Below are positions 19,347 to 55,389 of a stretch of DNA of 64,000 nucleotides, one piece after another. The translations under genes were made by a program, and so were the position numbers. Source of the stretch: Bacillota bacterium (lineage in GTDB: Bacteria > Bacillota > Clostridia > Christensenellales > CAG-138); the NCBI GenBank assembly GCA_023399275.1, contig JAEWQH010000009.1:2489-66488 (forward strand), given 5' to 3'. Numbering within the stretch: position 1 is the stretch's first letter; each line of letters starts with the position of its first letter. The notes below the pieces were generated by a model. That model made no database searches. It was given only the letters and a program-made list of their open reading frames with translations, and was not told the origin of the DNA.

Positions 19347-19606
19347 CGGCTTCTCCAGACAAATCCATCCTCTGCGCACGGCGCGGCAAAAAGCCGCCGC
19401 AGCTCCGGCTGATATGCTACCTATTATAGCAGAAAACCCTGCGCGCGCGTTTTTCACCTCACTCCGTGAGAACCGCCGCTTTGCAAAGCGCGGCGCCCCC
19501 GCAGGCCGCCCCCAGGCGGCATCCAACCCGACGGATACGGGCGAAGGAATTGCACTCGGGTCCGCTAAGGCGTATACTGTTGCTATTCTTGGTTGGAGAG
19601 AAATGC

Positions 19607-20578
19607 ATGCTCTATTCTTTGTTTTCGGTTTCCTACGACGTCCGCTGGGTGCTCGCCAGCGTTTTTGCCTCGTTTATTCTCACGTTTTTTGCCATCCGGA
19701 TCGGCATCGGCCGCTTACCCAAGGATCAGGGCAGAAAATACGCCGTCAACAGCGAGCTATCCAAGGGCAAACCGCGCGGTGCGGGCCTGATCTTCAGCAT
19801 CTGTGTCGTTGCCGTGTTCCTCGTGTTTGTTCCGTTTCGTTGGGAATACGTCGTCTACTGCGCGCTGTTCCTGCTCTCGATGCTCTCGGGGTATCTGGAC
19901 GACCGCAGCGTCCAGTCCTGGAGCGAGCTGCGAAAGGGACTGCTCGACCTCGCCATCTGCCTTGCAGCGGCGGGCACATATCTGCTCTTTAACGAGTCGC
20001 ACAGTCTCGCGCTCTTCGGCTGGACGCTCGTGCTGCCCAAGTGGGCGTTTCTGATCGTCGCCACATTTGTTCTCTGGATCTCGATCAACTTCACCAATTG
20101 TACGGACGGCGTGGACGGCCTGCTCGGCTCGGTTTCCGCCGTTTCGATGGCCACCTTTGCCGCCATCTTCCTGCTCATGGGCGGCTCGCTCGACCTCGCG
20201 CAGATGTGCTTTGTATTCATCGGCTCGCTTCTGGCATACCTGGCATTCAACGCTTCGCCAAGCCAGATCATCATGGGCGACGCGGGTTCGCGCACCATCG
20301 GCATCTTCCTTGGCGTGATGGCGCTCAAGACGTATAACCTGCTCTATTTTATCCCCGCCGTGCTGGTGATCGTCCTCGACGGCGGCATCGGGCTGTTTAA
20401 GCTGCTGTTCATCCGGTTGACGAAGATCAAGGGCTTTCTCAAGTCCGTCCGCACCCCGCTGCACGATCACGCCCGCAAGAACATGGGCTGGTCGGACACG
20501 CAGGTGGGCGTGCGCTTCTCGATCCTTCAGCTGCTCGTCAGCGGCCTTTGCATCGCGGCGCTGCTGCTGCGCCGCTGA
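19607..20578 (+). CDS. MraY/WecA-superfamily polyprenyl-phosphate sugar-phosphate transferase (MraY paralog)
   Basis: ORF trimmed to the ATG at 19607 (MLYSLFSVSY…) after GGAGAG. Motifs GYLDD, NFTNCTDGVDGL, MGDAGSR and PLHDH are in the order seen in MraY-type enzymes. Confidence 0.75.
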   Translation: MLYSLFSVSYDVRWVLASVFASFILTFFAIRIGIGRLPKDQGRKYAVNSELSKGKPRGAGLIFSICVVAVFLVFVPFRWEYVVYCALFLLSMLSGYLDDRSVQSWSELRKGLLDLAICLAAAGTYLLFNESHSLALFGWTLVLPKWAFLIVATFVLWISINFTNCTDGVDGLLGSVSAVSMATFAAIFLLMGGSLDLAQMCFVFIGSLLAYLAFNASPSQIIMGDAGSRTIGIFLGVMALKTYNLLYFIPAVLVIVLDGGIGLFKLLFIRLTKIKGFLKSVRTPLHDHARKNMGWSDTQVGVRFSILQLLVSGLCIAALLLRR

Positions 20579-20583
20579 CGCAC

Positions 20584-20613
20584 GAAGCCGCCCGGCCAGG
20601 GGCGGCTTTTTTG
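20584..20613. terminator. Rho-independent terminator (bidirectional position)
   Basis: GAAGCCGCCC-GGCCAG-GGGCGGCTTTTTTG. Confidence 0.8.
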
Positions 20614-20665: not shown

Positions 20666-21544
20666 CTAATAGAACTGCGGGCGGCGCGTCATCCTGCCTT
20701 TCATCTGCGGCAAATAGAACAACTCCCGCTCGATACGCATGACCGCCAGCCTGTCGATGCGATAGTTTCGAACCGCCGTATCCTCGTTCACTTCAAAAAA
20801 TTCACTCCAGCGTGCTTCGCTGGCGTTCGGATCCTGATAGGACGGCAAGACGTAGCCAATCTGCGCTTGCTCGCCGCGCAGGAGGCAGGCGAAGATGGAA
20901 TATCCGCTGTTGTCTGCGATGTATGCGCCCTGCTCCGTGGGGTTCGACTGCAGCAGCACGGCGCGCAGGCCCGCCCCTTTCACGATCTCAAACCACTCCG
21001 TCTCGGAAACCACGCCTGCAAGCCGGCTGGCAAGCGCGAGCAGCTCCGGTTCCTCTCCTGCGCAAACGGGGTCTTGCTCCCCCGCCTTCGGCTGCGCGGC
21101 TATCCGCTTCGCTTCCTGCGAGTCGTTTTGCGCCGCCATCCGTTCCAGCGCGACCGAATCGATCCGCAGATGCGCATCCCTCGGCCAGGCGACCTGTTCA
21201 ACGCGGAGCGGGGCGCGAACAGCGATTCCGTCCCGCAAGGAGTCGGCGATCTTGCCAAGCTGCCTCGTCTGGCGGGCGCGCTCATGCGCAGCTTTCGAAA
21301 CGGCGATCGCAACCCACATCAGCGCGGCGACCCCTATCACCGCAAGCACCAGCGCGGCGAGCGACATCCATTTCTCCCCCAGGATTATAACGCCGAGATG
21401 CAGCTCGTTCCCCGCGGATACATCCATACCCGATCCGCCTTGCCCGGATGGAATCCATCCCACAGCAAGCGTCCGCGAAACGGGGAGCACGCACAACGGC
21501 AGCGGCAAAAGCAGCGCAGCGAGCGCTTTCATTCTTCTTGTCAC
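20666..21544 (-). CDS. Hypothetical membrane-anchored protein (operon gene 5 of 5)
   Basis: 292 aa. GTG start 5 nt after GGGAGG, with a GTGA overlap with the stop of the upstream gene. Has a signal-like N-terminus, one clear TM (WMSLAALVLAVIGVAALMWVAIAV), and a ~200-aa domain I do not recognise. Confidence 0.6.
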   Translation of the reverse strand: MTRRMKALAALLLPLPLCVLPVSRTLAVGWIPSGQGGSGMDVSAGNELHLGVIILGEKWMSLAALVLAVIGVAALMWVAIAVSKAAHERARQTRQLGKIADSLRDGIAVRAPLRVEQVAWPRDAHLRIDSVALERMAAQNDSQEAKRIAAQPKAGEQDPVCAGEEPELLALASRLAGVVSETEWFEIVKGAGLRAVLLQSNPTEQGAYIADNSGYSIFACLLRGEQAQIGYVLPSYQDPNASEARWSEFFEVNEDTAVRNYRIDRLAVMRIERELFYLPQMKGRMTRRPQFY

Positions 21545-24500
21545 AAATGCCTCCCTTCGTGGTCCCGGAGCATGCTCAAGGCGTCCTGCAGATACTTATC
21601 GCCGACAGCCTCCAGCGCATTCAGAAAATATCCGTATTTTTTCGGCTTGGCCCCGATGATGCCGTCCACCCCCGGAAGGGTCAACACCGCCGGGTCGTAT
21701 TCATTCGCCCCAAAGCGCCAACCATAGCTCGTCTCTGCCACAACGCGAAACGCTTTTATATACGACGAAACCATATCCGGATCGGTGCATATCTCTATTT
21801 GTCTATATTGCGTCGCCTGATAGGCGGGAAGCTCCGCCGTCTGCTCCAGATTCGGCTCGAATATCGCCTGATTCGTTGCGCCTGCAACAAAGTATTCATT
21901 CGGCACGCTTTGCAGCGCCCCAAACGCTACCTCTTCCTTCGGCCTCTGCGAAAAGCGGCAAACGAACCGCTCGTCGGGTATGTTCAGTTTGCTTGCTCTC
22001 TGAAACAGAAGGCGGATAAAGTGTACCGTCCGCTTGACATCCGGCGTAATCCAACGAACGATCTTCGATCCGTTTCCTGCAAGCAGCATCGAGATCTGCA
22101 GGTTGTCATCTTCCCAATCGAACATCACGGCCGAAAGCCAAACCACCGCGCCGAGATAGAACGCGATCCGCTTTTTGATCACCGAAAACCCCGGAGCGTC
22201 CTGCTCGTATTGCTCTCGAAAAGTCAGGTTTTCCGCGTCGTTCGCGCATCGGTTCATAAATGCTTCCCCCAGATTTGCGGGCTGCAAGGCCGCCGCCGGG
22301 TTCGACGGGTCGCGCGGGATGCGAATGGAGAACAGATCCTCGATCAGGCTATCGCTGTTTCGGGCGGAAAAAGCCTGGATATATTGATCTGGGTTGCGAA
22401 TGACCGTCCTCAAGTTCTCACCGGATTCTCTCATGAGTTTGCGCAGGAAGAAAAAATCCGCCGCACTGAGCGTCTCCAGCAGGATCTTGCGCGCGCCGAA
22501 CGCCAGCGATGCGGCCACCGAGTTTCTCGGTCTGTTTGTACCTTCCTGGCTGATGTAGAGATCTGTCGATCCGCCGCCGATGTCCATGATGAAGTAATTC
22601 TGGTTGAAGCTCTCTTGCTGCACGGAATAGCGAAACGCAGCTTCGCTCTCCGTCAGGCACGTGATCTGCTGAGCGACGGCTGTCGCATGAGGTGCAACCG
22701 CCTCGGCCTGCTGCGGACTCTGCAGCAAAACACCGGTCGATTGGCAGACCGTCATCAGCATGGAATTGAGCGTGTTGAAGTACGACACCCGCATGTTTTC
22801 GTCAAACGCCAGCGGATATGTCGCCGTAAGGGCGATGCTGGCGCAGCCGCGGCAGCGCGCCTCCAGCGCAAGCATCGTCAATAACTGCGTCAGAATTGCA
22901 CAGGTGCGATGCCCGTTCGTCTGATCCGACCGCTGCCACTTGAGGTCGGAGCAAAGCACCGGCCATTTCTCCGGTTCTCGCGCCTCAACAAATGCGCGAA
23001 AATAGATCCAGCTATCGCGAAACACGCGCCGCGGCTGATCCCCGGCGCCGGCATCCGCCAGAATAGTCTGCATCGGCATGCAGGAAGGGTACCGTGCCGC
23101 GCACTGCGGATCCTCCTCCAGCTGCCGGAAGGAATCCTGCGCGTGCAGGGTTCGGCGCCTTACGAAACCCGCTTGGTCCTTCGGCAGATGCAGCGGGGGA
23201 AAGAAATACTTCTCCAGACGCGATGTATCGCGCCCCTCGCTGTCCGCCGCGTTCATCAGCGGCAAGCTCCACAGGTGCACGCCGTCGATCCGAAAAGCGG
23301 CATCGCCATCGATGCTGGCGTAGAGCGTGGTGGCGGACGTTCCGAAGTCAATTGCCGCGTGAAATACTCGCTCGGGCCTGCCCGCCGGGATTTCAGGCCG
23401 CGGACGGATCTGCAGATACCCGATCAGCTGATCATCCTTGCGCAGGGCGCATCGCTCAGGCGCGCTGGAAAGCCGGCTATACAGCAAGGTCCCGTCCGCC
23501 CCATCCTCTTTCGTGTACTGCTTTGCCGGGGTTGCGGCGCTTGGCTCCGACGGCTCCAGCCGATAGCCGTTGATTTCGTCACAGAAGAAATAGTACTCTC
23601 CCCAGCCCGCAATCCTCTGCCGCGGCCAGATCGCGGCGGTGCAGAGGTTTCGAAAGAGCTGGCTGTCGATCTGCGCCGCCAGGTACGTTTGCGTAAGATC
23701 GAGATCGCCCAGCGTGACCGTTACGGTGATGCCGTTGATCTCAACCCCGTTTTTCGAATATGTGGGGCAAATGCTGTAGTCCGGCTCAAGCGCAAGATTA
23801 TCCTCCCAAAGGCGCCAAAAAGTCTCCGTCACCGGTAGGGCTACGAAGAAGTGCGCCGTCTTTCCCTTCCCCAGATCATGGCTGACCAGGCATCTTGGCG
23901 CAATGCCCCCGGCGAACCGATTGGTGTCCAAAAGATTCGGCTGCTCCGACGCCTGATCGATCAACACATAGAACACCCGGTCAAGAAACAGGCGCAGACC
24001 CGTCGGCACGGACACTCCGTTGATCTGCAATCCAACCTGCTCCGCATCCTGCGAAAGAAACGCGCGGAGATTCGTCGTGCTTTGCATGTTCAGCCGGAAT
24101 GCGTCCGCAAGGGCTTTCTCGTAACCAAATATCAGGTCCATATTCTGCGCACCCGCATTCGCGTTCGCGCGGTAGTTTTTGAGCCAGCTGTATAGCAAAA
24201 GCGCATGCACCGGCAGCATGACGGGAGTCTCCTCCTCCGTCTGCTTGCGCATAAGCGGGTAAGCACGGCCTTCACGCTCCTCAACCGGAGCATGCACCTG
24301 CCGATCCGTCAGCCAGGGAATCCGATCCGGATAGACGAACCGAAGATTTCGCCAGGCATCCTTGGTCGGAACCACATGTACGCCCGGAGACGACATCGCG
24401 ATCGGATAGCGCACTCTGTCCGCCTCGACGTAGTAGATAATCATGCTCTCCCAGTCCGCGGCCTGTGGGCGGCTGTTGTACGCCGCGCGGAGATGGGCGC

Positions 24501-24846
24501 TGTAAACGGGATCCGCAAAGCGGATCGTCTGCGAATGGATCTCCACGCCGTAGGACTCCGCCAGCACCAGTATGGCGAGCATGGCGCGCCATTCGCGCCG
24601 GGCGATCTGCTCATACTCCAAATAGCTCGGATCCACCGCCGTGTTGAGCAGCAGCATCTCAAACAGGCGGTGCTGGCTCCAGATGTCCGGCACGGAGCTG
24701 ATCCGGCGAAAATCCGTCTGCTTCGGGCCCTCCTCCTGCCACGCGCTCGAGATGCGAAGCTCCTGGCCGATGTCATGCAGCTTCGAGACATCGCCGCTGA
24801 GGGCAGTATTGTTCGGATGGGACGAAAACCAGTGATAAAACGACAT
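21541..24846 (-). CDS. Large (~1101 aa) hypothetical protein with an Hsp70/actin-fold ATPase module in its C-terminal half (operon gene 4)
   Basis: ORF trimmed to the ATG at 24846 (MSFYHWFSSHP…) after GGAGGCAAGG. Motifs occur in actin-fold order: AAIDFGTSATT (23329..23361), MDIGGGSTD (22561..22587), LLAGNGSKI (22060..22086). I do not recognise the N-terminal ~490 aa. Confidence 0.65.
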   Translation of the reverse strand: MSFYHWFSSHPNNTALSGDVSKLHDIGQELRISSAWQEEGPKQTDFRRISSVPDIWSQHRLFEMLLLNTAVDPSYLEYEQIARREWRAMLAILVLAESYGVEIHSQTIRFADPVYSAHLRAAYNSRPQAADWESMIIYYVEADRVRYPIAMSSPGVHVVPTKDAWRNLRFVYPDRIPWLTDRQVHAPVEEREGRAYPLMRKQTEEETPVMLPVHALLLYSWLKNYRANANAGAQNMDLIFGYEKALADAFRLNMQSTTNLRAFLSQDAEQVGLQINGVSVPTGLRLFLDRVFYVLIDQASEQPNLLDTNRFAGGIAPRCLVSHDLGKGKTAHFFVALPVTETFWRLWEDNLALEPDYSICPTYSKNGVEINGITVTVTLGDLDLTQTYLAAQIDSQLFRNLCTAAIWPRQRIAGWGEYYFFCDEINGYRLEPSEPSAATPAKQYTKEDGADGTLLYSRLSSAPERCALRKDDQLIGYLQIRPRPEIPAGRPERVFHAAIDFGTSATTLYASIDGDAAFRIDGVHLWSLPLMNAADSEGRDTSRLEKYFFPPLHLPKDQAGFVRRRTLHAQDSFRQLEEDPQCAARYPSCMPMQTILADAGAGDQPRRVFRDSWIYFRAFVEAREPEKWPVLCSDLKWQRSDQTNGHRTCAILTQLLTMLALEARCRGCASIALTATYPLAFDENMRVSYFNTLNSMLMTVCQSTGVLLQSPQQAEAVAPHATAVAQQITCLTESEAAFRYSVQQESFNQNYFIMDIGGGSTDLYISQEGTNRPRNSVAASLAFGARKILLETLSAADFFFLRKLMRESGENLRTVIRNPDQYIQAFSARNSDSLIEDLFSIRIPRDPSNPAAALQPANLGEAFMNRCANDAENLTFREQYEQDAPGFSVIKKRIAFYLGAVVWLSAVMFDWEDDNLQISMLLAGNGSKIVRWITPDVKRTVHFIRLLFQRASKLNIPDERFVCRFSQRPKEEVAFGALQSVPNEYFVAGATNQAIFEPNLEQTAELPAYQATQYRQIEICTDPDMVSSYIKAFRVVAETSYGWRFGANEYDPAVLTLPGVDGIIGAKPKKYGYFLNALEAVGDKYLQDALSMLRDHEGRHL

Positions 24847-24871: not shown

Positions 24872-26449
24872 TTACGCGCGCCGCACGCAGCACTCCGCCA
24901 AAGAAGAGACGAAATACGCAACTGCATGCTCGGGGTCTACGCGCGCCGAGTTCATCTGCGAGGTGATCCGCGCACAGGGGATGCCCAGCATATCACACGC
25001 GGTTGAACCTTCGCGCGCTACGCGCTGAATGGCCTGATAAATCAGCGGCGTGTTTCTCAGCACGTTACCCTCTATCTTCAGCAGTTCGTTCATGCCGTGG
25101 TGATCCAGCTCCTCCAGCCAGCGGAAGATCTGCTTCGTAAATGCCAGCGGCACGCCTACCCCCTCCGTTCGACTGTCATAGGTTTTGTGCAGGTTGCGCT
25201 GCCTGCCCCACACCGTGCGGAGCACCTCCGGCCGGTAATTCCACGGACACCGCCCGCTGACGCGGTAATAAACGCCCAGCATCAGGCAAAAGCGCTCCAG
25301 CCGGAGGATGTAATCCTGCACCGAGGCGATCCGCATCTCACCCGGCAGCCCGTGCGACGCCGGAAAAAACTCGAAACGGGTCAGCGGAAAAGCCGCTTCG
25401 GGAGGAATATCCAGCGTGGGATCGGAGTTGACCCATTTCAGCGGAACATAGACCTTGCTTTGCGCATCTGCCGATGCGGGCAGATCGCCGGCGAAATACC
25501 GGCAGATACCGATGGCCGCCATCAACTCCGCCGGCATGGACGGGTCGTCCTGCCCCTCGTGGTCCTCGCTGGCCCGGTCCAGCCGCACGCCGGCCCATGT
25601 GCCGTCCTCCTTTTTCTTTTCCATCTGCCGCCGGTCGTCGCCCACAAACTGTGCAAATTCCAGTTCGGAGAGCACATCGGACATCTCGTAGTACTTCAGC
25701 GCCATCTTGCTGTTGATGACAAACAATCCGCTGTCCACGTCGGTATCTCTCCCGATATCGAAGTAGGGCAGCATGAGCGTCAGCGCAACGCGCCTTGCAA
25801 ACGGCGCCGTCTCGGTATTGTTTTCGTTGCGGCAGGCGCGCACAAACCGCCGCGCCAGCGTCGGCGCTCCGCTCGCCCCCGTCCCGCCGAATACGGAGCC
25901 GACAAACATCACGCGCAGCTCATCCTGTGTGCTGATGCCGGAAAAGATCGATCTCCAGAACCCGCTCAGGTCGTTCCATTCCCGGTCGAACTGCTCCGCC
26001 CAGATCAGCGAGCCGATGCGCGGCCTGCCCTTGCAGCCCCGGCGCAGCTCCATCGCGCGGTCGTCCCCTCCAAACAGCGCATGAAACGCCAGCGCGTCCG
26101 GCCCCGTGAGGTAATCGTTTCCCACCAGATCGTCAAGCGTGCTGCGGTCGTTGATCGGCGTGGACAGTCTCTCCATCGCATCGATCCCCTTCGGCTTCCA
26201 GCAGGGGCGCTCGGCGTTTTCATCCACGATCACAGAAAGATAGGGAAGCGCTTCGTTGACGCTGCGAATCATCTCCTCCAGCTCAACCCGATCCCCGCCC
26301 GCTACGATGTCCAAATCCACAAGGCGGAGCTCCAGCTTGTACTCCGTCTGGCACAGGTCACTCAGGTACCCGCTCGCAGCCAATGCCACGAGAGACTGGG
26401 CAACGCGCATGCCGGAGCCGCCGATCGCCACCAGAACAAATTTCGTCAT
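24872..26449 (-). CDS. Divergent tubulin/FtsZ-superfamily GTPase-like protein (operon gene 3)
   Basis: ORF trimmed to the ATG at 26449 (MTKFVLVAIGGSGMRVA…) after GGGAGGGGAAGG. Three motifs: AIGGSGMRV (26402..26428), GCKGRPRIG (26012..26038), and GSVFGGTGASGAP (25862..25900), which resembles the tubulin signature GGGTGS/TG. Confidence 0.6.
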   Translation of the reverse strand: MTKFVLVAIGGSGMRVAQSLVALAASGYLSDLCQTEYKLELRLVDLDIVAGGDRVELEEMIRSVNEALPYLSVIVDENAERPCWKPKGIDAMERLSTPINDRSTLDDLVGNDYLTGPDALAFHALFGGDDRAMELRRGCKGRPRIGSLIWAEQFDREWNDLSGFWRSIFSGISTQDELRVMFVGSVFGGTGASGAPTLARRFVRACRNENNTETAPFARRVALTLMLPYFDIGRDTDVDSGLFVINSKMALKYYEMSDVLSELEFAQFVGDDRRQMEKKKEDGTWAGVRLDRASEDHEGQDDPSMPAELMAAIGICRYFAGDLPASADAQSKVYVPLKWVNSDPTLDIPPEAAFPLTRFEFFPASHGLPGEMRIASVQDYILRLERFCLMLGVYYRVSGRCPWNYRPEVLRTVWGRQRNLHKTYDSRTEGVGVPLAFTKQIFRWLEELDHHGMNELLKIEGNVLRNTPLIYQAIQRVAREGSTACDMLGIPCARITSQMNSARVDPEHAVAYFVSSLAECCVRRA

Positions 26450-26465
26450 ATGCCTTCCCCTCCCT

Positions 26466-27023
26466 TTAGCGCGTCGGATAGACCCGCTTGATCTTGTGAT
26501 CGATCCATCTGGACAGCGGCCAGCGCACGACGCAGTTGGTCGCCGGCACCGCATCCATGCAGATGCGCCAGAGCAGCACGCCGCACACAACAAAGACATA
26601 GTACGGCAGCCATAGCTTCAAAACGCTGTCGTTTGCATTGGGCAGCAGGATTCCGATCCAGTTTCCCGAAGACAGCGCATATCGATAGCCGGACATCGCA
26701 GCGGCGCAGACCACGATCAAAAACGCATTTATGATATTCTGCATCCGGGTGCGTGCAGACAGTCGCGGCCCAAAATCCCCTTTTTTCTCATTCACGATGA
26801 AAAAGACCAGATTCAGCAACCAAACAGCCGCGATGCCGCCGGCGTGAATCCAACGCGTCGCATCCGAAAACTGCTGCCCAATCCGCTGCGCCGCGTCGTC
26901 CAGGTAAAACACGCCTGTCAGCGCGGTGCGATACCAGACGGGCGGAAACAGCGCCAACACTGCGGCAGCCAGAAACGCCGTAATTGCGCGCAGTGCGACT
27001 CGTTTTCTGAAAGTTGCATCCAT
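26466..27023 (-). CDS. Small 4-TM membrane protein (operon gene 2)
   Basis: ORF trimmed to the ATG at 27023 (MDATFRKRVALRAITAFLAAAV…) after GGGAGG. 185 aa with four hydrophobic helices. Confidence 0.6.
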   Translation of the reverse strand: MDATFRKRVALRAITAFLAAAVLALFPPVWYRTALTGVFYLDDAAQRIGQQFSDATRWIHAGGIAAVWLLNLVFFIVNEKKGDFGPRLSARTRMQNIINAFLIVVCAAAMSGYRYALSSGNWIGILLPNANDSVLKLWLPYYVFVVCGVLLWRICMDAVPATNCVVRWPLSRWIDHKIKRVYPTR

Positions 27024-27045: not shown

Positions 27046-28836
27046 TTACTGAATTCCGGTCTGAATCTGCTTTGCCTCCACAACGCTGAAAGCCCAGCCG
27101 CCAAAGTCTTCCGTCTCTTCCCACGTGGCTGAACTGAGGTATTTGCCCGGCACGTCGCGCACGACCATGCCGAACATCACCGTCTGAACGCACGCCTCCG
27201 TCTGATCCCGGATCGCTTCGTCTACCAGCGCGATCTGCCCGTCGGCAATCCCCCCGATGAGCAGGTTGGAAAGAAACGGCGTCCTGGCCGTGGTTGCATA
27301 GGTATATCGCGCGGAGGTCGTCGTTTGTCCGTCGCGAACAAACTCGCGGTCAAACGTCTTGAGGTTGAGCGTAAGCGCATTCACCCAATCGGTATCATAG
27401 AGCGCGTTGAGCGTTTCGCGCCGCGGCGTGACAGCGACGCGGACGCTGATCGTGCAAAGCAGCGGTTCATCCTTGGCAAGCTGCGCCGTATCGACCGAGA
27501 GCACGATCTCGATCGTCTCCCCCGCTTCGTCGATCACCGCGCTTTCGCAGCGCACCAGGGCGGTAGACGGCTCCACCCAGTCCGCCTCCGGCTGCGCGCC
27601 TGCGTTCTCACGATATGTCAGCATGCGAATCTGTGTCGTAACGGTGCAGTCCTCCCGTGAAAACGAAATCTGCCCTGCCGGCACTACCAGTCCGTATTTG
27701 TCGACTATGTCTTCGGCCTTCTCCAGGGAATCCGTCAGCGTAAACGGGACCGTACAGCGCACCTTCACGTTCTGTTCGCCGCTGCCGCGCTCAAGGTCGT
27801 AGATCTTGGCAATCGGAACGGCCTCCAGCAACCGCTGGTATGACTCGGGAACCTCCTCTGCGGAAGGGTAACGGATGGCACCCGCTTCATCCGCAAGGCC
27901 GCGCACGAGAAATTGCGCGGGATAGTCGGCCGCGTCATACTGCTGATATCCGAGGGAAAACGAAGCGAAGATGTCGTCCTTATCCCGGCGCGAAACCCCG
28001 TACTCGGAGAAAAACAGCGCATAATGCGGCGTGCTCTCATCGAGCAGCCCTCCGCTCTCCAGTGAGGCGAGCGCTTTTTGCATCGCGCCGAGTACCTGCC
28101 GGTCGTCCCCCATGAACAGCAGGTAGAGCGGATGGCGGAAGTTTCCGTCTGCGTCGCGCTCCTGCACCATATAGTCGCTGAGCTTTCGGGTGCGGCCAGT
28201 CGCAGGATTGACGGGCAGGTTCTCAATCGCGCCGCGAAACTCTCCCACGATGGCGATGATGCCGAGCGTCGCGTTTTCCGGCTGCAGCACCTTGCTGCGC
28301 AGCGCCGTGGCCGCTTTCACGCAGTCGTCCTCGGTCGGGATCATCAGATCCGAAATCAATATCATCAACCGGTCGGAACTTCGCTGGTAGCGCTTCGCCA
28401 TGGCCGTGATGACGGAAGCGATATCGTTGCTCTCTTCTTGAAAGAACGGTTCCTGAACGGCCTCCTGAAAAAATGGTTCGGTGGATTCATGCAGAGACGT
28501 GCCGTTTATGAGGAGTTCGCTCGCGCGCAGATAGGTGCACTCGGCGCCGATGCCGACGCTTGAAACGGCGCTGAGCGCGGCGCGATAGCTCATGCAATAC
28601 TGTGCGACAAAGCCCTTCATGCCAAATCCGTCGTCAACGACGATGTCGTATCGCACCTGCTCCGTCCGGTCTGACTGTGCCTTCGCAGATTGCGGTTCGA
28701 GCAAGTCCAGCCCCCCATACAGCGCTTCTGTCGGCTCCATGATCCCGTATGGCTCCGGTGTTTCCGGTTTTCCGCAGCCGTACAAAGCAAAACAGCCCAT
28801 GAGGCAGATCAGCACACATAGTAACGTCTTTTTCAT
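27046..28836 (-). CDS. Lipoprotein, ~596 aa, with a possible degenerate vWA-like N-terminal domain (operon gene 1)
   Basis: ORF trimmed to the ATG at 28836 (MKKTLLCVLICLMGCFALYGCGKPE…; lipobox LYGC) after GGGAGA. YDIVVDDGFGMKGF and DRLMILISDLMIP resemble vWA beta-1 and beta-4 strands, but the MIDAS DxSxS motif is absent. Confidence 0.55.
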   Translation of the reverse strand: MKKTLLCVLICLMGCFALYGCGKPETPEPYGIMEPTEALYGGLDLLEPQSAKAQSDRTEQVRYDIVVDDGFGMKGFVAQYCMSYRAALSAVSSVGIGAECTYLRASELLINGTSLHESTEPFFQEAVQEPFFQEESNDIASVITAMAKRYQRSSDRLMILISDLMIPTEDDCVKAATALRSKVLQPENATLGIIAIVGEFRGAIENLPVNPATGRTRKLSDYMVQERDADGNFRHPLYLLFMGDDRQVLGAMQKALASLESGGLLDESTPHYALFFSEYGVSRRDKDDIFASFSLGYQQYDAADYPAQFLVRGLADEAGAIRYPSAEEVPESYQRLLEAVPIAKIYDLERGSGEQNVKVRCTVPFTLTDSLEKAEDIVDKYGLVVPAGQISFSREDCTVTTQIRMLTYRENAGAQPEADWVEPSTALVRCESAVIDEAGETIEIVLSVDTAQLAKDEPLLCTISVRVAVTPRRETLNALYDTDWVNALTLNLKTFDREFVRDGQTTTSARYTYATTARTPFLSNLLIGGIADGQIALVDEAIRDQTEACVQTVMFGMVVRDVPGKYLSSATWEETEDFGGWAFSVVEAKQIQTGIQ

Positions 28837-29238
28837 TGAAATCTCCCATCGCATGGTGTCGCCAGCCCAGAAAGGAACGAGTCGGGGGATCGAATGGCAT
28901 CGGCGGGATAGGCACCGGATTTGCCCCATCGTAACATTGCGCGGCTACGCGCACAAGGCGTATAAAAACGCGCATTATTGGGTATTTCCCTCTCGACGAT
29001 CGATCCCATCCCGTCGCAGCGACCGATGAAAAGCCCCTTTGGCGCGATTTCGCCGGCCCGCAGCCCGCTGAAAACGACTGTTTATCGGCAGCCGCGCTTT
29101 GCCCGCCGCCCTTTGGACTGCCGGCAATCCAACGCGCGAAAATACCCTTCTTTGGGGGATAAGCCGTTGCGCCGGCAACGCCGGATTCCATTGATGAAAG
29201 CTGCCGGTCTCTACAATCCCAAGCCGTTTTTGACGCAT

Positions 29239-29274
29239 AAAGAGGGCCTCCGAACCAAATCGGAAGCCCTCTTT
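29239..29274 (-). terminator. Stem-loop downstream of the GH31 gene
   Basis: AAAGAGGGCCTCCGA-N6-TCGGAAGCCCTCTTT, a 15-bp stem with one mismatch. There is no clean U-tract on the minus strand. Confidence 0.5.
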
Positions 29275-29296
29275 GATGATCGATTGGGTCGCAGGC

Positions 29297-31309
29297 TCAG
29301 CGGATCTCGCGCAGCCGCTCCATCACCCGCGCAATTTCGCTGTCAGCGCGGTAAAACACCGGCGGCTCGCCGATGGGCGCGGCGATCGTGACCGCGCCGC
29401 CCCTGTATGACGCACCCGACCAGAGATGCACCCAGTCGTCCTGCGGCAGGTAGAGCATGCGCGTCTGCGCCGCCTCCTCCACGACGGGCGCCACGAGGAT
29501 ATCGCGCCCCAAGAGGTATTCATACGGCTCGGTATACGCCCGCGCGTCGTCGGGATAATGCAAAAACAGCGTCCGCATGGCAGGCAGACCCGTTTCGCAG
29601 TTCTCCGCGCCGAGGGAGACGAGGTAGAGCGAGAGCGCCCGGTGGATGCGGGAAAAGCGCGAAAAGAAGGCTATGGTTTCGTCATCCGCGTCAAACTGCG
29701 TGTTTTCGTCCGGCCGGTTGCCTTCGTGCGTGCGCATTACGGGCGTAAACGCCGCGAACTCGCAGCCGCGCAGCAGCAGCTCCTTTGTGCGGTATTTGCC
29801 AAACAGCGCGGTATAGCCGCCGATATCGAAGGTGAGCATGCCAAACCCGGTCATGCCTAGCGAGAGCGCGGCGTTGATCACGCTCGGCAGCCCGTCATCC
29901 GGCGAAAAATCGACAAACTGGTCACCGGAGAACATCAGCGGAGAGTATCTCTGCGTGCCGGTCGCGCCGGAGCGGGTATAGAAACCGATCTTGCCGAGCA
30001 TGCCGCTCTCCAGCAGCGCCTCGTAGTTGAGCTTTGCCCAGAGCGTGGGCCATTCGTTGTGCGCCGAGATCGCGCTCTGTCCGGAAAAGAGCACGCAGTT
30101 GGTCGGCAGGTATTCGCCGAAATCCACCATCCAGCCGCGCAGACCCAGCGCGATCATGTTCTCCCGGATCACGCTCTTGTACCAGGTGCAGGCGGCGGGG
30201 TTCGTCAGGTCTACAAAGCCGCTGTCGAACTCGCCAAAGTCGATCAGGTAGTCCGTTCCATCCTGCTTTTTGACGAAGAAACCACGCGCCTTCGCTTCAG
30301 CGAAGAGCACGCCGCCCTCGACGAGGTAGGGGTTGATGTAGCCCATCCAGGCGATTTTGCGCGCGTCGTTTGCCGCGATGTCCTCCCGCAGAGAAGGGTA
30401 CGTCTCGCTGTTCCAGCGCCAGTCCCACTGCAGGCGCTTGCCGAAGCTCGTGACGCGCTTGCCGACCCAATCCTGCGTCCAGACCGCTGAGACGGCTGTG
30501 TCCGCGGCAAGCATGCGCTCTAGCTTGCTGCGGCAGGCTTCGGAGCCGCCCTGCATGCCCAGCAGTATGCCGTTGAACATGTATTCCGGCAGCGGCGGCT
30601 GGCGGCCGACCAGCGCGGTGAGGTCGCCCAGCAGCGCCGGATAGCTCTCCTTTGCGCCTATGGTGAGTGAAAATGCGCTCTGCCAAAGGTGGAGTCCGTG
30701 GAATCCCGCGTGGGAGAAGTCCACCTCCGCATAGTCGTAGCCGTGCAGGTGCAGATAATACAGCCGCGAGGAGACAAACGTCGCCTCGGGGTAATACGTC
30801 GTCCAGTAGTCCCCGCCGCCGCCGTCGAGCTGGTCGGCAAGAAACGTTGTGAGCGTTTTTTTGTTTCGGCCGACGCCCTGCTCCATGGTGAAGATCGGGT
30901 AGTTCCTGCCACGCAGGTCGAGGCTCGAGAACTGCTCGCCCAGGCCATAGACGTGCTCGTCCGCCTCGGCGAACACCTTGAGCCACAGCCGGTTGTAACG
31001 CGGGCTGTCGCAGCAGCCGGAGACGTCCAGCCGGCCGCCCTGTTCACGCAGGGTGAGCGTAAACGCCGCGGCATGATAGTCCTTGTAGAGGCGGATGACA
31101 ATGCCGCCCTCATCCTGCACGGCGGTAAACGCCGAAAACGGGATGCGCTCGGCGATCTCGTCCGAGATATGAAAATTGCCGTGGTGCATATCGATCGTCT
31201 CGCTGCCCACGCCGAGATAGAGCATCGGCTCCGCCAGCGTGTGGCGCAGGATCAGCCTTCCGTCGTAAAAAAGCGAAAAGCCGGCTTCGGTTCGGTCGAG
31301 TTTGAGCAT
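29297..31309 (-). CDS. yihQ: GH31 glycoside hydrolase, YihQ-like sulfoquinovosidase
   Basis: 670 aa. As far as I recall the E. coli YihQ sequence, this protein is collinear with it: GNFHISD, YGLGEQFS, MEQGVGRNK, QDWVGKRVTSFGKRLQWDWRWN (30425..30475), GWMVDFGEYLP, MRTHEGNRP, PPVFYRADSE. Confidence 0.8.
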   Translation of the reverse strand: MLKLDRTEAGFSLFYDGRLILRHTLAEPMLYLGVGSETIDMHHGNFHISDEIAERIPFSAFTAVQDEGGIVIRLYKDYHAAAFTLTLREQGGRLDVSGCCDSPRYNRLWLKVFAEADEHVYGLGEQFSSLDLRGRNYPIFTMEQGVGRNKKTLTTFLADQLDGGGGDYWTTYYPEATFVSSRLYYLHLHGYDYAEVDFSHAGFHGLHLWQSAFSLTIGAKESYPALLGDLTALVGRQPPLPEYMFNGILLGMQGGSEACRSKLERMLAADTAVSAVWTQDWVGKRVTSFGKRLQWDWRWNSETYPSLREDIAANDARKIAWMGYINPYLVEGGVLFAEAKARGFFVKKQDGTDYLIDFGEFDSGFVDLTNPAACTWYKSVIRENMIALGLRGWMVDFGEYLPTNCVLFSGQSAISAHNEWPTLWAKLNYEALLESGMLGKIGFYTRSGATGTQRYSPLMFSGDQFVDFSPDDGLPSVINAALSLGMTGFGMLTFDIGGYTALFGKYRTKELLLRGCEFAAFTPVMRTHEGNRPDENTQFDADDETIAFFSRFSRIHRALSLYLVSLGAENCETGLPAMRTLFLHYPDDARAYTEPYEYLLGRDILVAPVVEEAAQTRMLYLPQDDWVHLWSGASYRGGAVTIAAPIGEPPVFYRADSEIARVMERLREIR

Positions 31310-55105: not shown

Positions 55106-55389
55106 AATATCCCATATGACCCCAAAAGCGACGAAGGGAACAAGACGCGGTCTCCCCCGCTTAGAGAACCGGCGGTTGGTGCAAGCCGGTGCGGCAGTCC
55201 GTGTGTATGGCTCATCCCGGAGCTTTTTGCCTGAATGATTGCATTAGGGCGAAACGATTGACCCCGTTACCGGTCTCGGCCTTGTTGGAGGCTATCGAGG
55301 GCCGACCGGGAGAACCGGCGGCCGAACCAGGGTGGTACCGCGTTGACACACGCCCCTGACCAAAAGAATTTGGTCAGGGGCGTTTTTTC
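55106..55389 (+). promoter_or_regulatory. T-box riboswitch leader (candidate Leu specifier CUC at 55211..55213)
   Basis: AGAGAACCGGCGGTTGGTGCAA stem I elements. GGCTCAT is a specifier-like context with a purine after the codon. T-box AGGGTGGTACCGCG at 55329..55342. Strong terminator CGCCCCTGACC-N9-GGTCAGGGGCG + TTTTTT. Confidence 0.85.

What the first reader, a model, noticed from the sequence alone, without database searches (positions are those of the whole stretch)
24872..26449. Highly divergent tubulin/FtsZ-superfamily candidate (525 aa)
Three glycine-rich motifs occur in the order expected for the tubulin/FtsZ GTPase domain. (1) FVLVAIGGSGMRVA (26402..26428 covers AIGGSGMRV), compared with the FtsZ N-terminal IGVGGGGxNA loop. 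(2) GCKGRPRIG (26012..26038), compared with the T3 loop GAGxxPxxG. (3) GSVFGGTGASGAPTLA (25862..25900), compared with the T4 signature GGGTG(S/T)G followed by AAPV in FtsZ. The spacing between motifs is longer than in FtsZ, which implies insertions. The C-terminal ~270 aa resemble nothing I recognise. If the assignment is right, this is a tubulin-fold protein far from the FtsZ, TubZ and BtubAB families.
Basis: partly seen in the sequence, partly recalled or inferred. Interest (0 to 1): 0.8.

Follow-up and report, generated by a model that had tools for sequence, protein, structure and literature searches.

The report
Divergent tubulin-like GTPase in membrane operon
The gene does encode a very divergent relative of tubulin/FtsZ, and it always sits next to (sometimes fused to) a giant actin/Hsp70-like ATPase inside a five-gene, membrane-anchored operon that is found across many bacterial phyla and whose function nobody has tested.

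Summary
They are invariant across about 200 cluster representatives.

The tubulin/FtsZ reading is supported.
- Distant homologues carry Pfam Tubulin_2 (PF13809) and Tubulin (PF00091).
- An AlphaFold2 model (pLDDT 82) hits only tubulin-superfamily structures among its top PDB matches. Phage tubulins lead the viral-library matches.

The protein is atypical in three ways.
- It falls below Pfam thresholds.
- It has no conserved T7 catalytic loop.
- Its C-terminal domain is helical and family-specific.

It belongs to a family of about 2,500 clusters of roughly 500-aa "short Tubulin_2-like" proteins. That family is related to the FtsZ-like proteins of Makarova and Koonin (2010) but has a different architecture.

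The gene is the third in a tightly packed five-gene operon:
- A, a lipoprotein
- B, a small membrane protein
- C, the tubulin-like protein
- D, an 1101-aa protein with an actin/MreB/Hsp70-type ATPase domain
- E, a membrane protein

The A-C-D core is conserved across phyla, and a natural C-D fusion exists. Function is untested. My best guess is a nucleotide-driven assembly at the envelope, acting in defence or membrane remodelling. I rate it a new variant of a known kind.

The parts
24872..26449 (-). Gene C: 525-aa tubulin/FtsZ-superfamily protein, the finding itself. The N-terminal GTPase-like domain spans about residues 1-320. The family-specific, mostly helical C-terminal domain spans about residues 375-525.
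   Evidence: ORF. Shine-Dalgarno sequence and ATG. Homologues carrying PF13809/PF00091. AF2 model. Foldseek matches to tubulins only.
26402..26428 (-). T1-like loop, AIGGSGMRV. G10, G11 and G13 are invariant.
26309..26317 (-). T2-like D45-L-D47 at the end of strand 2 (compare FtsZ N-T-D). Both Asp residues are 95-99% conserved.
   Evidence: the mapping to T2 is by position in the fold and is an inference
26012..26038 (-). T3-like loop, GCKGRPRIG. G138 and G146 are invariant.
   Evidence: Pfam Tubulin_2 partial hit over residues 137-195
25853..25900 (-). T4 signature region, GSVFGGTGASGAPTLA. S185, F187, G188-A192 and P196 are invariant.
   Evidence: aligned to the CetZ T4 loop by a profile search
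25523..25552 (-). Q300...E308 (QDDPSMPAEL). The Gln and Glu are invariant, at the start of the helix predicted at residues 306-320. These are the candidate T6/H7 guanine-contacting residues.
   Evidence: the assignment to T6/H7 is an inference
27046..28836 (-). Gene A: 596-aa lipoprotein (signal peptide plus LYGC lipobox). It has an N-terminal alpha/beta domain, Ig-like beta domains and a helical C-terminus. Distant orthologues carry a DxSxSM motif, which is degenerate here (VVDDGFGM).
26466..27023 (-). Gene B: 185-aa membrane protein with 3-4 hydrophobic helices. It starts 20 nt after the stop codon of A and has a GGGAGG Shine-Dalgarno sequence.
21541..24846 (-). Gene D: 1101-aa protein. The N-terminal ~500 aa are an unknown conserved region (SxPDIW..EWR motifs). 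The C-terminal half is an actin/MreB/Hsp70-type (ASKHA) ATPase. In the numbering of the 1128-aa ORF that starts at 24927, it carries DFGTS at about residue 527, TESxAA at about 760, DIGGGSTD at about 782 and GNGSK at about 951. Subtract 27 for the 1101-aa protein.
20666..21544 (-). Gene E: 292-aa membrane protein with a signal or N-terminal hydrophobic segment, a transmembrane helix and a conserved cytoplasmic C-terminal domain. Its start overlaps the stop codon of D. It lacks most of the ~170-aa extracytoplasmic domain found in orthologues.
20584..20609 (.). GC-rich hairpin between E and the convergent glycosyltransferase gene. It is the likely end of the operon.

Best explanation
Gene C encodes a GTP-binding protein of the tubulin/FtsZ fold. 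It belongs to a large, uncharacterised 'short Tubulin_2-like' family. It is one subunit of a five-protein, membrane-anchored complex encoded by the operon A-B-C-D-E.

Shown:
- the fold assignment;
- an intact set of nucleotide-pocket motifs (T1-T5, plus a conserved Gln and Glu at the T6/H7 position);
- obligatory linkage to gene D, whose C-terminal half is an actin/MreB/Hsp70-type ATPase with all of its nucleotide motifs;
- a natural C-D fusion;
- membrane or extracytoplasmic signals in A, B and E.

Inferred: C and D bind each other on the cytoplasmic face of the membrane and are tethered there by B and E. Lipoprotein A sits on the outer face as the anchor or sensor. GTP binding by C and ATP turnover by D then drive assembly, or a conformational switch, of the complex.

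The family has no conserved T7-type acidic loop, and its C-terminal domain is helical rather than the FtsZ/tubulin alpha/beta domain. I therefore expect either a non-canonical polymer or a GTP-dependent switch, not a classical self-activating protofilament.

The biological output is not shown. My best guess is an envelope-associated task. I put about 0.35 on a conflict or anti-phage function and about 0.3 on membrane or cell-wall remodelling.
For: Fold and family:
- Homologues carry PF13809/PF00091.
- The AF2 model has pLDDT 82.
- All top 50 PDB matches are tubulin superfamily, and phage tubulins or PhuZ lead the BFVD matches.
- The motifs are invariant in 200 cluster representatives.

Family size: 2,506 clusters at E<=1e-3 and 1,478 at E<=1e-30. 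Nearly all are 480-545 aa and match over their full length.

Operon:
- The five genes are separated by -4 to +25 nt, and the four starts inspected (A-D) have Shine-Dalgarno sequences.
- A, C and D are adjacent in Bacillota, Negativicutes, Bacteroidota, Acidobacteriota, Alphaproteobacteria, Cyanobacteria, Calditrichota and Ignavibacteria.
- D lies directly downstream of C in 35 of 61 loci with enough sequence. All but two of the rest belong to one separate Selenomonadaceae paralogue clade.
- P0213 (1683 aa) is a C-D fusion: C HMM 2e-99 over residues 1-513, D HMM 8e-111 over residues 554-1676. It is seen on three contigs, and the two shown come from different samples.

Partner D: its profile hits MreB at 3e-7, and also FtsA and BiP/Hsp70, in the PDB. 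MreB_Mbl matches 7 of 20 members.

Membrane features of A, B and E.

Envelope link: Gram-negative versions add MotA/ExbB+OmpA or SH3+TonB_C proteins.
Against: - The window protein itself does not reach the Pfam gathering score (14.4 bits against 27).
- It has no sequence-level PDB hit.
- hhalign against E. coli FtsZ aligns only the T1 loop.
- Foldseek scores are weak (E about 1e-3, TM 0.2-0.4), and only about 280 columns align.
- No conserved acidic residue follows the H7-like helix, so GTP hydrolysis by the usual mechanism is doubtful.
- No biochemical or genetic data exist for any family member, as far as I could find.
- The complex model rests on gene order, one fusion and hydrophobicity. 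I ran no interaction prediction.
- In the window's own lineage the operon sits at a stable chromosomal site next to a conserved glycosyltransferase, not in a defence island.
Confidence: 0.75

Rival explanations
1. C is not a tubulin homologue. It would instead be another glycine-rich Rossmann-type nucleotide-binding protein (for example a GxGxxG dinucleotide binder) whose motifs mimic T1 and T4.
For: The N-terminal beta-strand-GGSG-helix resembles a Rossmann dinucleotide-binding start. The Pfam hit for the window protein is below threshold. The Foldseek TM-scores are low.
Against: All top 50 PDB matches are tubulin-superfamily members, and none is a dehydrogenase or other Rossmann enzyme. The same holds at the top of the BFVD list. 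Twenty-six of 39 relatives hit Tubulin_2 and 17 of 39 hit Tubulin. T3, T4 and T5 equivalents are invariant and in the right order.
Confidence: 0.04
2. The cassette is a dedicated anti-phage or conflict system. A surface lipoprotein and membrane proteins would sense envelope perturbation, and the tubulin-like and actin/Hsp70-like NTPases would assemble in response. This would be analogous to Zorya (ZorAB) or to the tubulin/HSP70-containing DO-GTPase systems of Kaur et al. 2020.
For: - The distribution across phyla is patchy.
- Some copies lie in mobile or defence contexts. One is next to DruA, a Lon-like AAA protease, a Mu-type transposase and an integrase. One is next to a DNA methylase, an FRG-domain gene and an SNase gene. 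The fusion locus is next to integrases, an IS630 transposase, MNT/HEPN genes and two methyltransferases.
- MotA/ExbB+OmpA genes that follow the cassette in two loci hit PADLOC ZorA/ZorB models.
- Published precedent exists for tubulin and HSP70 homologues in predicted conflict systems (PMC7159879).
- The cassette proteins evolve faster than the neighbouring glycosyltransferase (50-70% against 77-85% identity).
Against: - None of the five window proteins hits a PADLOC model.
- No recognisable effector domain (nuclease, TIR, protease) occurs in the core.
- In the window's lineage the locus is syntenic and lies among housekeeping or envelope genes.
- There is no DO-GTPase or GAP1 partner.
- I made no statistical test of defence-island enrichment.
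Confidence: 0.35
3. The cassette is an accessory cytoskeletal or membrane-remodelling machine, acting in vesicle formation, envelope growth or repair. This is what Makarova and Koonin proposed for the FtsZl1 operons.
For: - All non-cytoplasmic components are membrane or lipoprotein.
- The operon is linked to a Glycos_transf_4 (MraY/WecA-like) gene in 8 close loci.
- Gram-negative versions carry TonB_C/SH3 and OmpA partners that bind peptidoglycan.
- A paralogous solo Tubulin_2 gene in Selenomonadaceae sits next to a LytR-CpsA-Psr cell-wall ligase.
- Published hypothesis: PMC2875224.
Against: The distribution is sporadic, and some copies are associated with mobile elements. No lipid- or peptidoglycan-modifying enzyme belongs to the core. 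No experimental support exists for any FtsZ-like family.
Confidence: 0.3
4. C and D form a DNA- or plasmid-segregation pair, like TubZ/PhuZ or ParM.
For: Tubulin-like (TubZ, PhuZ) and actin-like (ParM, AlfA) proteins are the known segregation motors. The Foldseek matches include PhuZ.
Against: No TubR/ParR-type DNA-binding adaptor or centromere is present. The locus is chromosomal and is always flanked by lipoprotein and membrane-protein genes. D is a 1100-aa protein, not a ~350-aa ParM. There is no T7 loop for dynamic filaments.
Confidence: 0.03

Closest known systems
Pfam Tubulin_2 (PF13809) / FtsZ-like 1 (FtsZl1) of Makarova and Koonin 2010 (PMC2875224)
   Same: Both have a divergent tubulin/FtsZ N-terminal domain with insertions between T1 and T4. 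Both keep an FGGTGA-type T4 loop, have poorly recognisable T6-T7 elements and have a non-FtsZ C-terminus. Both are encoded in operons with membrane-associated proteins. Some operons of each kind carry MotA/ExbB+OmpA genes (compare Deinococcus DR_0536-0540, with L004). Relatives of the window protein hit PF13809 directly.
   Different: FtsZl1 proteins are 760-1200 aa and have a long coiled coil plus an alpha-helical C-terminal domain. This family is about 500-540 aa, has no coiled coil and has its own C-terminal domain. FtsZl1 neighbours are Pfam-recognisable vWA proteins, novel GTPases and kinases. Here the invariant neighbour is a ~1100-aa actin/Hsp70-like ATPase, and the upstream lipoprotein shows no detectable vWA domain. 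The window protein scores below the PF13809 gathering threshold.
FtsZ-like 2 (FtsZl2; e.g. Pseudomonas fluorescens PFL_1302) of the same paper
   Same: Overall size is similar: a tubulin-like domain followed by an uncharacterised C-terminal region of about 300 aa, with no coiled coil.
   Different: FtsZl2 is reported as limited to Proteobacteria, as retaining T6, T7 and H7, as having a mixed alpha/beta C-terminal region and as having no conserved gene neighbours. The present family spans many phyla, lacks a conserved T7 loop, is predicted to be helical at the C-terminus and has a strict operon. I did not compare the sequences directly.
Tubulin- and HSP70-containing DO-GTPase/GAP1-N2 'conflict systems' (Kaur, Burroughs, Iyer, Aravind 2020, PMC7159879)
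   Same: These are predicted membrane-proximal multi-gene systems that include tubulin-superfamily proteins or HSP70-fold ATPases. The authors propose that they form NTP-dependent assemblies.
   Different: In those systems the tubulin theme (with vWA proteins) and the HSP70+GrpE theme are separate, non-overlapping themes. Both depend on DO-GTPase and GAP1 core genes. Here tubulin-like and actin/Hsp70-like proteins occur together (and fused in P0213), and no DO-GTPase or GAP1 was detected in the window cassette.
FtsZ with FtsA (divisome core)
   Same: Both pair a tubulin-fold GTPase with an actin-fold ATPase at the cytoplasmic face of the membrane. D's ATPase profile also hits FtsA.
   Different: There is no FtsZ_C domain, T7 loop or C-terminal FtsA-binding peptide. 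D is three times the size of FtsA and has an unrelated 500-aa N-terminal region. The cassette has extracytoplasmic partners and a patchy distribution. This is an analogy of parts only, not evidence of a role in division.
CetZ, TubZ/PhuZ, BtubAB, OdinTubulin (solved divergent tubulins)
   Same: These are the best structural matches to the N-terminal domain.
   Different: Sequence identity is 10-15% and TM-scores are 0.2-0.4. The C-terminal domain and the partner proteins are different, and there is no sequence-level hit.

Membership tests
Tubulin/FtsZ superfamily (Pfam clan containing PF00091, PF13809) | Rossmann-like N-terminal GTPase domain with the tubulin/FtsZ topology | tested here: met
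   The AF2 model has pLDDT 82 and pTM 0.89. All top 50 PDB matches are tubulin, CetZ, OdinTubulin, BtubAB or PhuZ, with probability about 1. Annotated phage tubulins or PhuZ take four of the top five BFVD places. Caveat: E is about 1e-3 and TM is 0.2-0.4.
Tubulin/FtsZ superfamily (Pfam clan containing PF00091, PF13809) | Glycine-rich T1 loop after strand 1 | tested here: met
   G10-G11-(S/T)12-G13 is 98-99% conserved in 200 representatives. It aligns to the FtsZ GVGGGG loop by hhalign.
Tubulin/FtsZ superfamily (Pfam clan containing PF00091, PF13809) | T4 signature GGGTG(S/T)G | tested here: met
   The sequence is S185-V-F-G-G-T-G-A-S-G-A-P196. GGTGA is invariant. The variant has F in place of the first G and A in place of S/T. 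It aligns to the CetZ T4 loop.
Tubulin/FtsZ superfamily (Pfam clan containing PF00091, PF13809) | T3 loop GxxxxPxxG | tested here: met
   G138-x2-G141-x-P143-x2-G146 is 85-100% conserved.
Tubulin/FtsZ superfamily (Pfam clan containing PF00091, PF13809) | T7 'synergy' loop with catalytic Asp/Glu after helix H7 (FtsZ NxDxxD; tubulin GxxNxD/E) | tested here: not met
   Across 200 representatives the only positions that are at least 80% acidic are 45, 47, 130, 264 and 308. None follows the helix at residues 306-320. This is a sequence-level test only. I made no structural superposition.
Tubulin/FtsZ superfamily (Pfam clan containing PF00091, PF13809) | C-terminal alpha/beta GTPase-activating domain (FtsZ_C / Tubulin_C) | tested here: not met
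   Residues 375-525 of the model are almost entirely helical. Most Foldseek alignments stop after about 280 columns. No Pfam hit covers this region.
Tubulin/FtsZ superfamily (Pfam clan containing PF00091, PF13809) | GTP binding, GTP hydrolysis and GTP-dependent polymerisation | not testable with these tools
   Requires purified protein.
Pfam Tubulin_2 (PF13809) | Score at or above the family's gathering threshold (27 bits) | tested here: not met
   The window protein scores 14.4 bits, E=0.023, and only residues 137-195 match. However, 26 of 39 aligned relatives match (best 8e-13), and phmmer links the window protein to them at 3e-16.
FtsZl1 (Makarova and Koonin 2010) | Architecture: N-terminal FtsZ-like domain, extended coiled coil and alpha-helical C-terminal domain, 760-1200 aa | tested here: not met
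   The protein is 525 aa. The longest predicted helix is 26 residues. Family members are 480-545 aa, whereas the FtsZl1 proteins listed are 763-1208 aa.
FtsZl1 (Makarova and Koonin 2010) | Adjacent gene for a vWA-domain protein | tested here: inconclusive
   Upstream lipoprotein A has a DxSxSM...TDL pattern in distant orthologues, degenerate to DDGFGM in the window. No member hits a vWA Pfam model. The AF2 model of A finds no vWA structure.
DO-GTPase/GAP1 conflict systems (Kaur et al. 2020) | Core DO-GTPase and GAP1 genes in the neighbourhood | tested here: not met
   None of the five cassette proteins hits a P-loop GTPase family in Pfam, NCBIfam or PADLOC. There is no model for GAP1 itself in these libraries, so only the GTPase part was really tested.
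ASKHA (actin/Hsp70/MreB/FtsA) ATPases: applies to partner protein D | Phosphate-1 (DxGT), connect-1 (ExxAA), phosphate-2 (DxGGGTxD) and adenosine (GG/GN-G) motifs in order | tested here: met
   In the 1128-aa ORF numbering, invariant residues are D527, F528, G529, T530, E760, D782, G784, G786, D789 and G951; A763 and N952 are nearly invariant. The profile hits MreB at 3e-7, and also FtsA and BiP. MreB_Mbl matches 7 of 20 members.
Known anti-phage systems (PADLOC-DB v2) | Any cassette protein matching a defence-system model | tested here: not met
   There are no hits for A-E of the window. Only accessory MotA/OmpA genes in two distant loci hit ZorA/ZorB models.

The most novel reading that the evidence does not exclude
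The A-B-C-D-E cassette would be a previously undescribed, widespread bacterial machine. In it a tubulin-fold GTPase and an actin-fold ATPase work as one obligate heteromeric unit (naturally fused in some bacteria). That unit would be coupled through membrane proteins to a cell-surface lipoprotein. It would form a signal-triggered composite 'tubulin-actin' assembly that acts in envelope defence or remodelling.
Probability: 0.3. Interest if true: 0.85.

Novelty: new variant of a known kind. Interest (0 to 1): 0.62.

Why it matters
Tubulin-fold and actin-fold proteins are the two great cytomotive families. In bacteria they are known to meet only at the divisome (FtsZ-FtsA).

A family of about 2,500 sequence clusters shows a tubulin-like GTPase next to a giant actin/Hsp70-like ATPase wherever enough flanking sequence was examined, apart from one paralogue clade. 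In at least one case the two are fused. Both are wired to lipoprotein and membrane partners. This would be a new setting in which to study how these folds cooperate.

It also bears on how tubulin-like proteins function without a T7 loop or the usual C-terminal domain.

If the cassette proves to be a defence or envelope-stress system, it would add a cytoskeleton-based mechanism to that field.

It also gives a concrete, testable context to the 'FtsZ-like/Tubulin_2' proteins, which have lacked experimental characterisation since 2010.

Tried and rejected
- **Sequence search of C against the PDB.** Neither the single sequence nor the family profile gave a significant hit. Only a CetZ T4 match at E=1.5 appeared.
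- **hhalign of the family profile against E. coli FtsZ.** Only the T1 loop aligned, with probability 1.7%. A single-sequence target is too weak for this test.
- **vWA hypothesis for lipoprotein A.** The DxSxSM/TDL motifs suggested it. Pfam scans of 21 orthologues, a PDB profile search and AF2 plus Foldseek gave no vWA match, so I do not claim it.
- **Third homologue search, using the A alignment.** It returned only the same close clade and added nothing.
- **PADLOC on the five window proteins.** No hits.
- **Literature searches.** I searched for a described tubulin-plus-actin/Hsp70 operon, for PF13809, for FtsZl1 follow-ups and for tubulin in anti-phage defence. I found only the 2010 and 2020 comparative-genomics papers and no experimental work. 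A 2026 preprint on Actinobacteria defence concerns MoxR-vWA systems, not tubulin.
- **SrfB lead.** A second ASKHA paralogue in Terracidiphilus hits SrfB weakly. SrfB and SrfC-like genes lie beside the fusion locus. D itself does not hit SrfB, so this remains only a lead.
- **The longer 575-aa ORF.** I rejected it. Its extra 50 residues overlap gene B and are absent from homologues.
Full report
**1. The observation**

The minus-strand ORF at 24872..26599 (575 aa) is listed by the ORF scan. The biologically sensible start is the ATG at 26449. It lies 7 nt downstream of AAAGGGAGGGG and just after the TAA of the upstream gene. Every close homologue starts at the same Met.

The first two motif ranges translate exactly as quoted. 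These are AIGGSGMRV at residues 8-16 and GCKGRPRIG at residues 138-146. The third range (25862..25900) covers GSVFGGTGASGAP, which is 13 of the 16 residues quoted.

The motifs are not chance glycine runs. G10, G11, G13, G138, G146, S185, F187, G188-A192 and P196 are invariant in 39 homologues that fall to about 20% identity. They are 97-100% conserved in 200 representatives of 50%-identity clusters.

**2. What the protein is**

Pfam gives only a sub-threshold Tubulin_2 (PF13809) match (E=0.023, 14.4 bits against a cut-off of 27, residues 137-195). NCBIfam, PADLOC and a PDB sequence search give nothing.

A search of 5.8 billion proteins finds 45 close homologues (32-71% identity), all unannotated. 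It then finds a tail of proteins at E = 3e-16 to 5e-6 that do carry PF13809, and two of these also carry PF00091. Scanned individually, 26 of 39 aligned members hit Tubulin_2 (best 8e-13) and 17 hit Tubulin/FtsZ PF00091 (best 6e-7).

An AlphaFold2 model built on that alignment is confident (mean pLDDT 82, pTM 0.89; the first 70 residues and the T4 region reach about 90-95). Foldseek against the PDB returns tubulin-superfamily entries only in the top 50: eukaryotic tubulins, gamma-tubulin, CetZ, OdinTubulin, BtubAB and PhuZ, with probability about 1. Against the independent BFVD library, annotated phage tubulins or PhuZ take four of the top five places.

The scores are weak (E about 1e-3 to 1e-2, TM 0.2-0.4, about 280 aligned columns). 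The case rests on the uniformity of the hits and their agreement with the sequence evidence, not on any single score. I regard superfamily membership as established at about 0.9.

**3. How it differs from canonical tubulin/FtsZ**

The conserved positions map, in order, onto the nucleotide-pocket elements:

| Element | Residues in the window protein |
|---|---|
| T1 | GG(S/T)G, residues 10-13 |
| T2-like | D45-x-D47 at the end of strand 2 |
| T3 | G138..P143..G146 |
| T4 | S185-x-F-GGTGA-x-G-x-P196 |
| T5-like | P228-Y-F230 after strand 5 |
| Candidate T6/H7 contacts | Q300 and E308 at the start of the helix at 306-320 |

The loop names for T2, T5, T6 and H7 are my inference from position.

After that helix no acidic residue is conserved in the family, so there is no recognisable T7 loop. 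Residues 375-525 are predicted to be almost all helical, unlike the alpha/beta C-terminal domain of FtsZ and tubulin. This C-terminal domain is nevertheless conserved. Profile matches run over the full length of ~500-aa proteins, with conserved P363, R386, F387, W414, W444 and L456.

These are the same peculiarities that Makarova and Koonin reported for their FtsZl1 family: T6-H7 not identifiable and an unrelated C-terminus (PMC2875224).

**4. The family**

A profile search of 1.84 billion cluster representatives finds 2,506 clusters at E<=1e-3 and 1,478 at E<=1e-30. Almost all are 480-545 aa.

A scan of one genome per GTDB species finds at least 522 loci. The window's own clade is Christensenellaceae and other Clostridia MAGs (63-68% identity). 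More distant members occur in Oscillospiraceae, Negativicutes, Bacteroidales, Acidobacteriota (Terracidiphilus), Brevundimonas and Phenylobacterium, Cyanobacteria, Calditrichia and Ignavibacteria.

RefSeq names some distant members 'tubulin-like domain-containing protein'.

**5. The operon**

In the window the gene is the third of five co-directional genes.

| Gene | Coordinates | Product |
|---|---|---|
| A | 27046..28836 | 596-aa lipoprotein |
| B | 26466..27023 | 185 aa, 3-4 hydrophobic helices |
| C | 24872..26449 | 525-aa tubulin-like protein |
| D | 21541..24846 | 1101 aa |
| E | 20666..21544 | 292 aa, one N-terminal hydrophobic segment and one TM helix |

The gaps between genes are 20, 16, 25 and -4 nt. 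GGAGG-type ribosome-binding sites precede the starts of A, B, C and D. A hairpin follows E.

Iterated HMMs built from the window proteins recover the same order in 41 of the fetched loci. A-C-D is present in all the phyla listed above. B and E were recognisable by sequence only in Bacillota-type (Clostridia and Negativicutes) loci, although genes of similar size occupy the same slots elsewhere.

D lies directly downstream of C in 35 of 61 loci with enough sequence. Twenty-four of the 26 exceptions are a separate 461-aa paralogue clade in Selenomonadaceae. The other two are L012 and L067, where I suspect a disrupted assembly or gene call.

Protein P0213 (1683 aa) is a C-D fusion. The C HMM matches at 2e-99 over residues 1-513, and the D HMM at 8e-111 over residues 554-1676. 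It is found on three contigs, and the two shown come from different metagenome samples. A-like and B-sized genes lie upstream. Gene order and this fusion together make a physical C-D partnership likely.

**6. The partners**

D. Its profile hits MreB (3e-7), FtsA and BiP/Hsc70 nucleotide-binding domains in the PDB. Seven of 20 orthologues hit Pfam MreB_Mbl, and others hit FtsA, Ppx-GppA, PilM or EutA. The invariant residues are the classical ASKHA motifs: DFGT (phosphate 1), ExxAA (connect 1), DxGGGxxD (phosphate 2) and GN-GSK (adenosine). The N-terminal ~500 residues (SxPDIW...EWR) match nothing.

A. It has a signal peptide with a lipobox. Its AF2 model (pLDDT 86) shows an N-terminal alpha/beta domain, beta-sandwich domains and a helical end. 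Distant orthologues carry a DxSxSM...TDL pattern reminiscent of a vWA MIDAS site, and the window clade has DDGFGM instead. Neither Pfam, a PDB profile search nor Foldseek supports a vWA assignment, so I leave it open.

E. Orthologues of E have an ectodomain of about 170 aa that is almost entirely missing in the window's copy, while the cytoplasmic C-terminal domain is kept.

All partners are 'hypothetical protein' in RefSeq.

**7. Surroundings elsewhere**

Gram-negative versions append further genes:
- MotA/ExbB plus OmpA genes, which hit PADLOC ZorA/ZorB models (L004 and one other locus);
- large SH3_3/TonB_C or TPR proteins;
- extra ~520-aa D-like paralogues;
- in single cases, an HSP70/SrfB-like protein or GrpE.

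Some copies lie among mobile or defence genes. In the window's lineage, however, the operon sits at a conserved site. It is convergent with a Glycos_transf_4 gene that is 77-85% identical across 8 loci.

**8. How it most likely works**

Shown so far: the fold, the intact GTP-pocket motifs, the intact ATPase motifs in D, strict co-occurrence and a fusion of C and D, and the membrane or extracytoplasmic character of A, B and E.

Inferred: C and D form a heteromeric NTPase module on the inner face of the membrane, tethered by B and E. This module is coupled to lipoprotein A outside. GTP binding by C and ATP turnover by D control assembly or a conformational switch.

The T7 loop and the usual C-terminal domain are absent. 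A classical self-activating protofilament is therefore less likely than a non-canonical polymer or a GTP-dependent switch.

The output is unknown. I weigh a conflict or anti-phage role at about 0.35. This rests on the patchy distribution, the island contexts, the ZorAB-like add-ons and the precedent of tubulin and HSP70 in the predicted conflict systems of Kaur et al. 2020 (PMC7159879). I weigh envelope or membrane remodelling at about 0.3. This rests on the Makarova-Koonin hypothesis, the stable envelope-gene context in this lineage and the peptidoglycan-binding add-ons. A DNA-segregation role and a non-tubulin Rossmann protein are both unlikely.

**9. Comparison with what is known, and novelty**

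The nearest catalogued relatives are the Tubulin_2/'FtsZ-like' proteins. The present family differs from FtsZl1 in four ways: size, the lack of a coiled coil, its own C-terminal domain and its invariant actin/Hsp70-like partner. It differs from FtsZl2 in phyletic spread, T7 status and having a strict operon. It lacks the DO-GTPase/GAP1 core of the 2020 conflict systems.

I found no paper that describes this cassette or any experiment on it. That search covers only the open-access library available here.

I therefore classify the finding as a new variant of a known kind. The more interesting result is the conserved tubulin-like plus actin-like membrane operon around it.

Noticed in passing
window 55122-55360 (+): A T-box leader (Rfam RF00230, 107 bits, E=1e-22). 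It is the only Rfam gathering-level hit in the window.
   Followed up: no
window 20666-21544 (-), compared with L005:14961-16250, L013:14895-16145 and others: Gene E of the window is 292 aa, whereas orthologues are 416-547 aa. The ~170-aa extracytoplasmic domain between the signal peptide and the TM helix is almost entirely missing, while the cytoplasmic domain is intact.
   Followed up: partly
L089/L090:8001-13052 (metagenome contigs): A natural fusion of the tubulin-like protein and the actin/Hsp70-like protein (P0213, 1683 aa). It lies directly downstream of SrfB (PF07520) and SrfC-like (PF10139, faint) genes and upstream of an island with integrases, an IS630 transposase, MNT/HEPN genes and two DNA methyltransferases. 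SrfB may itself be an ASKHA protein, which raises the possibility that SrfBC is an analogous NTPase pair.
   Followed up: partly
L027-L084 (about 24 of the 61 loci with enough downstream sequence; Selenomonadaceae/Quinella), e.g. L079:9995-11380: A separate 461-aa Tubulin_2 paralogue (PF13809, 3e-9) lacks the A and D partners. In many of these loci it is preceded by a LytR-CpsA-Psr cell-wall ligase gene, a YrbL-like gene and a small ~165-aa gene. Some Selenomonadaceae carry the full C-D-A cassette as well.
   Followed up: partly
L033, L064, L073, L083 (Ignavibacteria, Bacteroidales, Calditrichia), downstream of D: These extended cassettes have a second ~520-aa D-like paralogue followed by a 700-1350-aa protein. 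In L033, L073 and L083 that protein carries TPR, SH3_3 and/or TonB_C domains; the 717-aa L064 protein had no Pfam hit. L056 (Bacteroides) has an extra 1080-aa D-like gene and a 1024-aa gene upstream of A.
   Followed up: partly
L004:8306-10684 and one other locus: MotA/ExbB- and OmpA-family genes directly after the cassette match PADLOC ZorA/ZorB models (down to 7.6e-20). The same pairing follows FtsZl1 genes in Deinococcus and cyanobacteria in the 2010 supplementary tables.
   Followed up: partly
window 19466-20578 (+) and 8 related loci: A Glycos_transf_4 (MraY/WecA-like) gene lies convergent with the end of the operon and is conserved in synteny. It is 77-85% identical, which is much higher than the cassette proteins (about 50-70%).
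   Followed up: yes
window 25097-26491 (+) and other long antisense ORFs: Long ORFs on the opposite strand of the operon (for example 464 aa antisense to gene C) are a consequence of about 60% G+C content. I treated them as non-genes. The 50-codon upstream extension of gene C overlaps gene B and is likewise spurious.
   Followed up: partly
window 28837-29297: An intergenic region of about 460 nt lies between the upstream GH31-like gene and gene A. It contains a hairpin plus T-run right after the GH31 stop codon. The operon's own promoter is presumably here, but no sigma-70 consensus was found by the simple scan.
   Followed up: no
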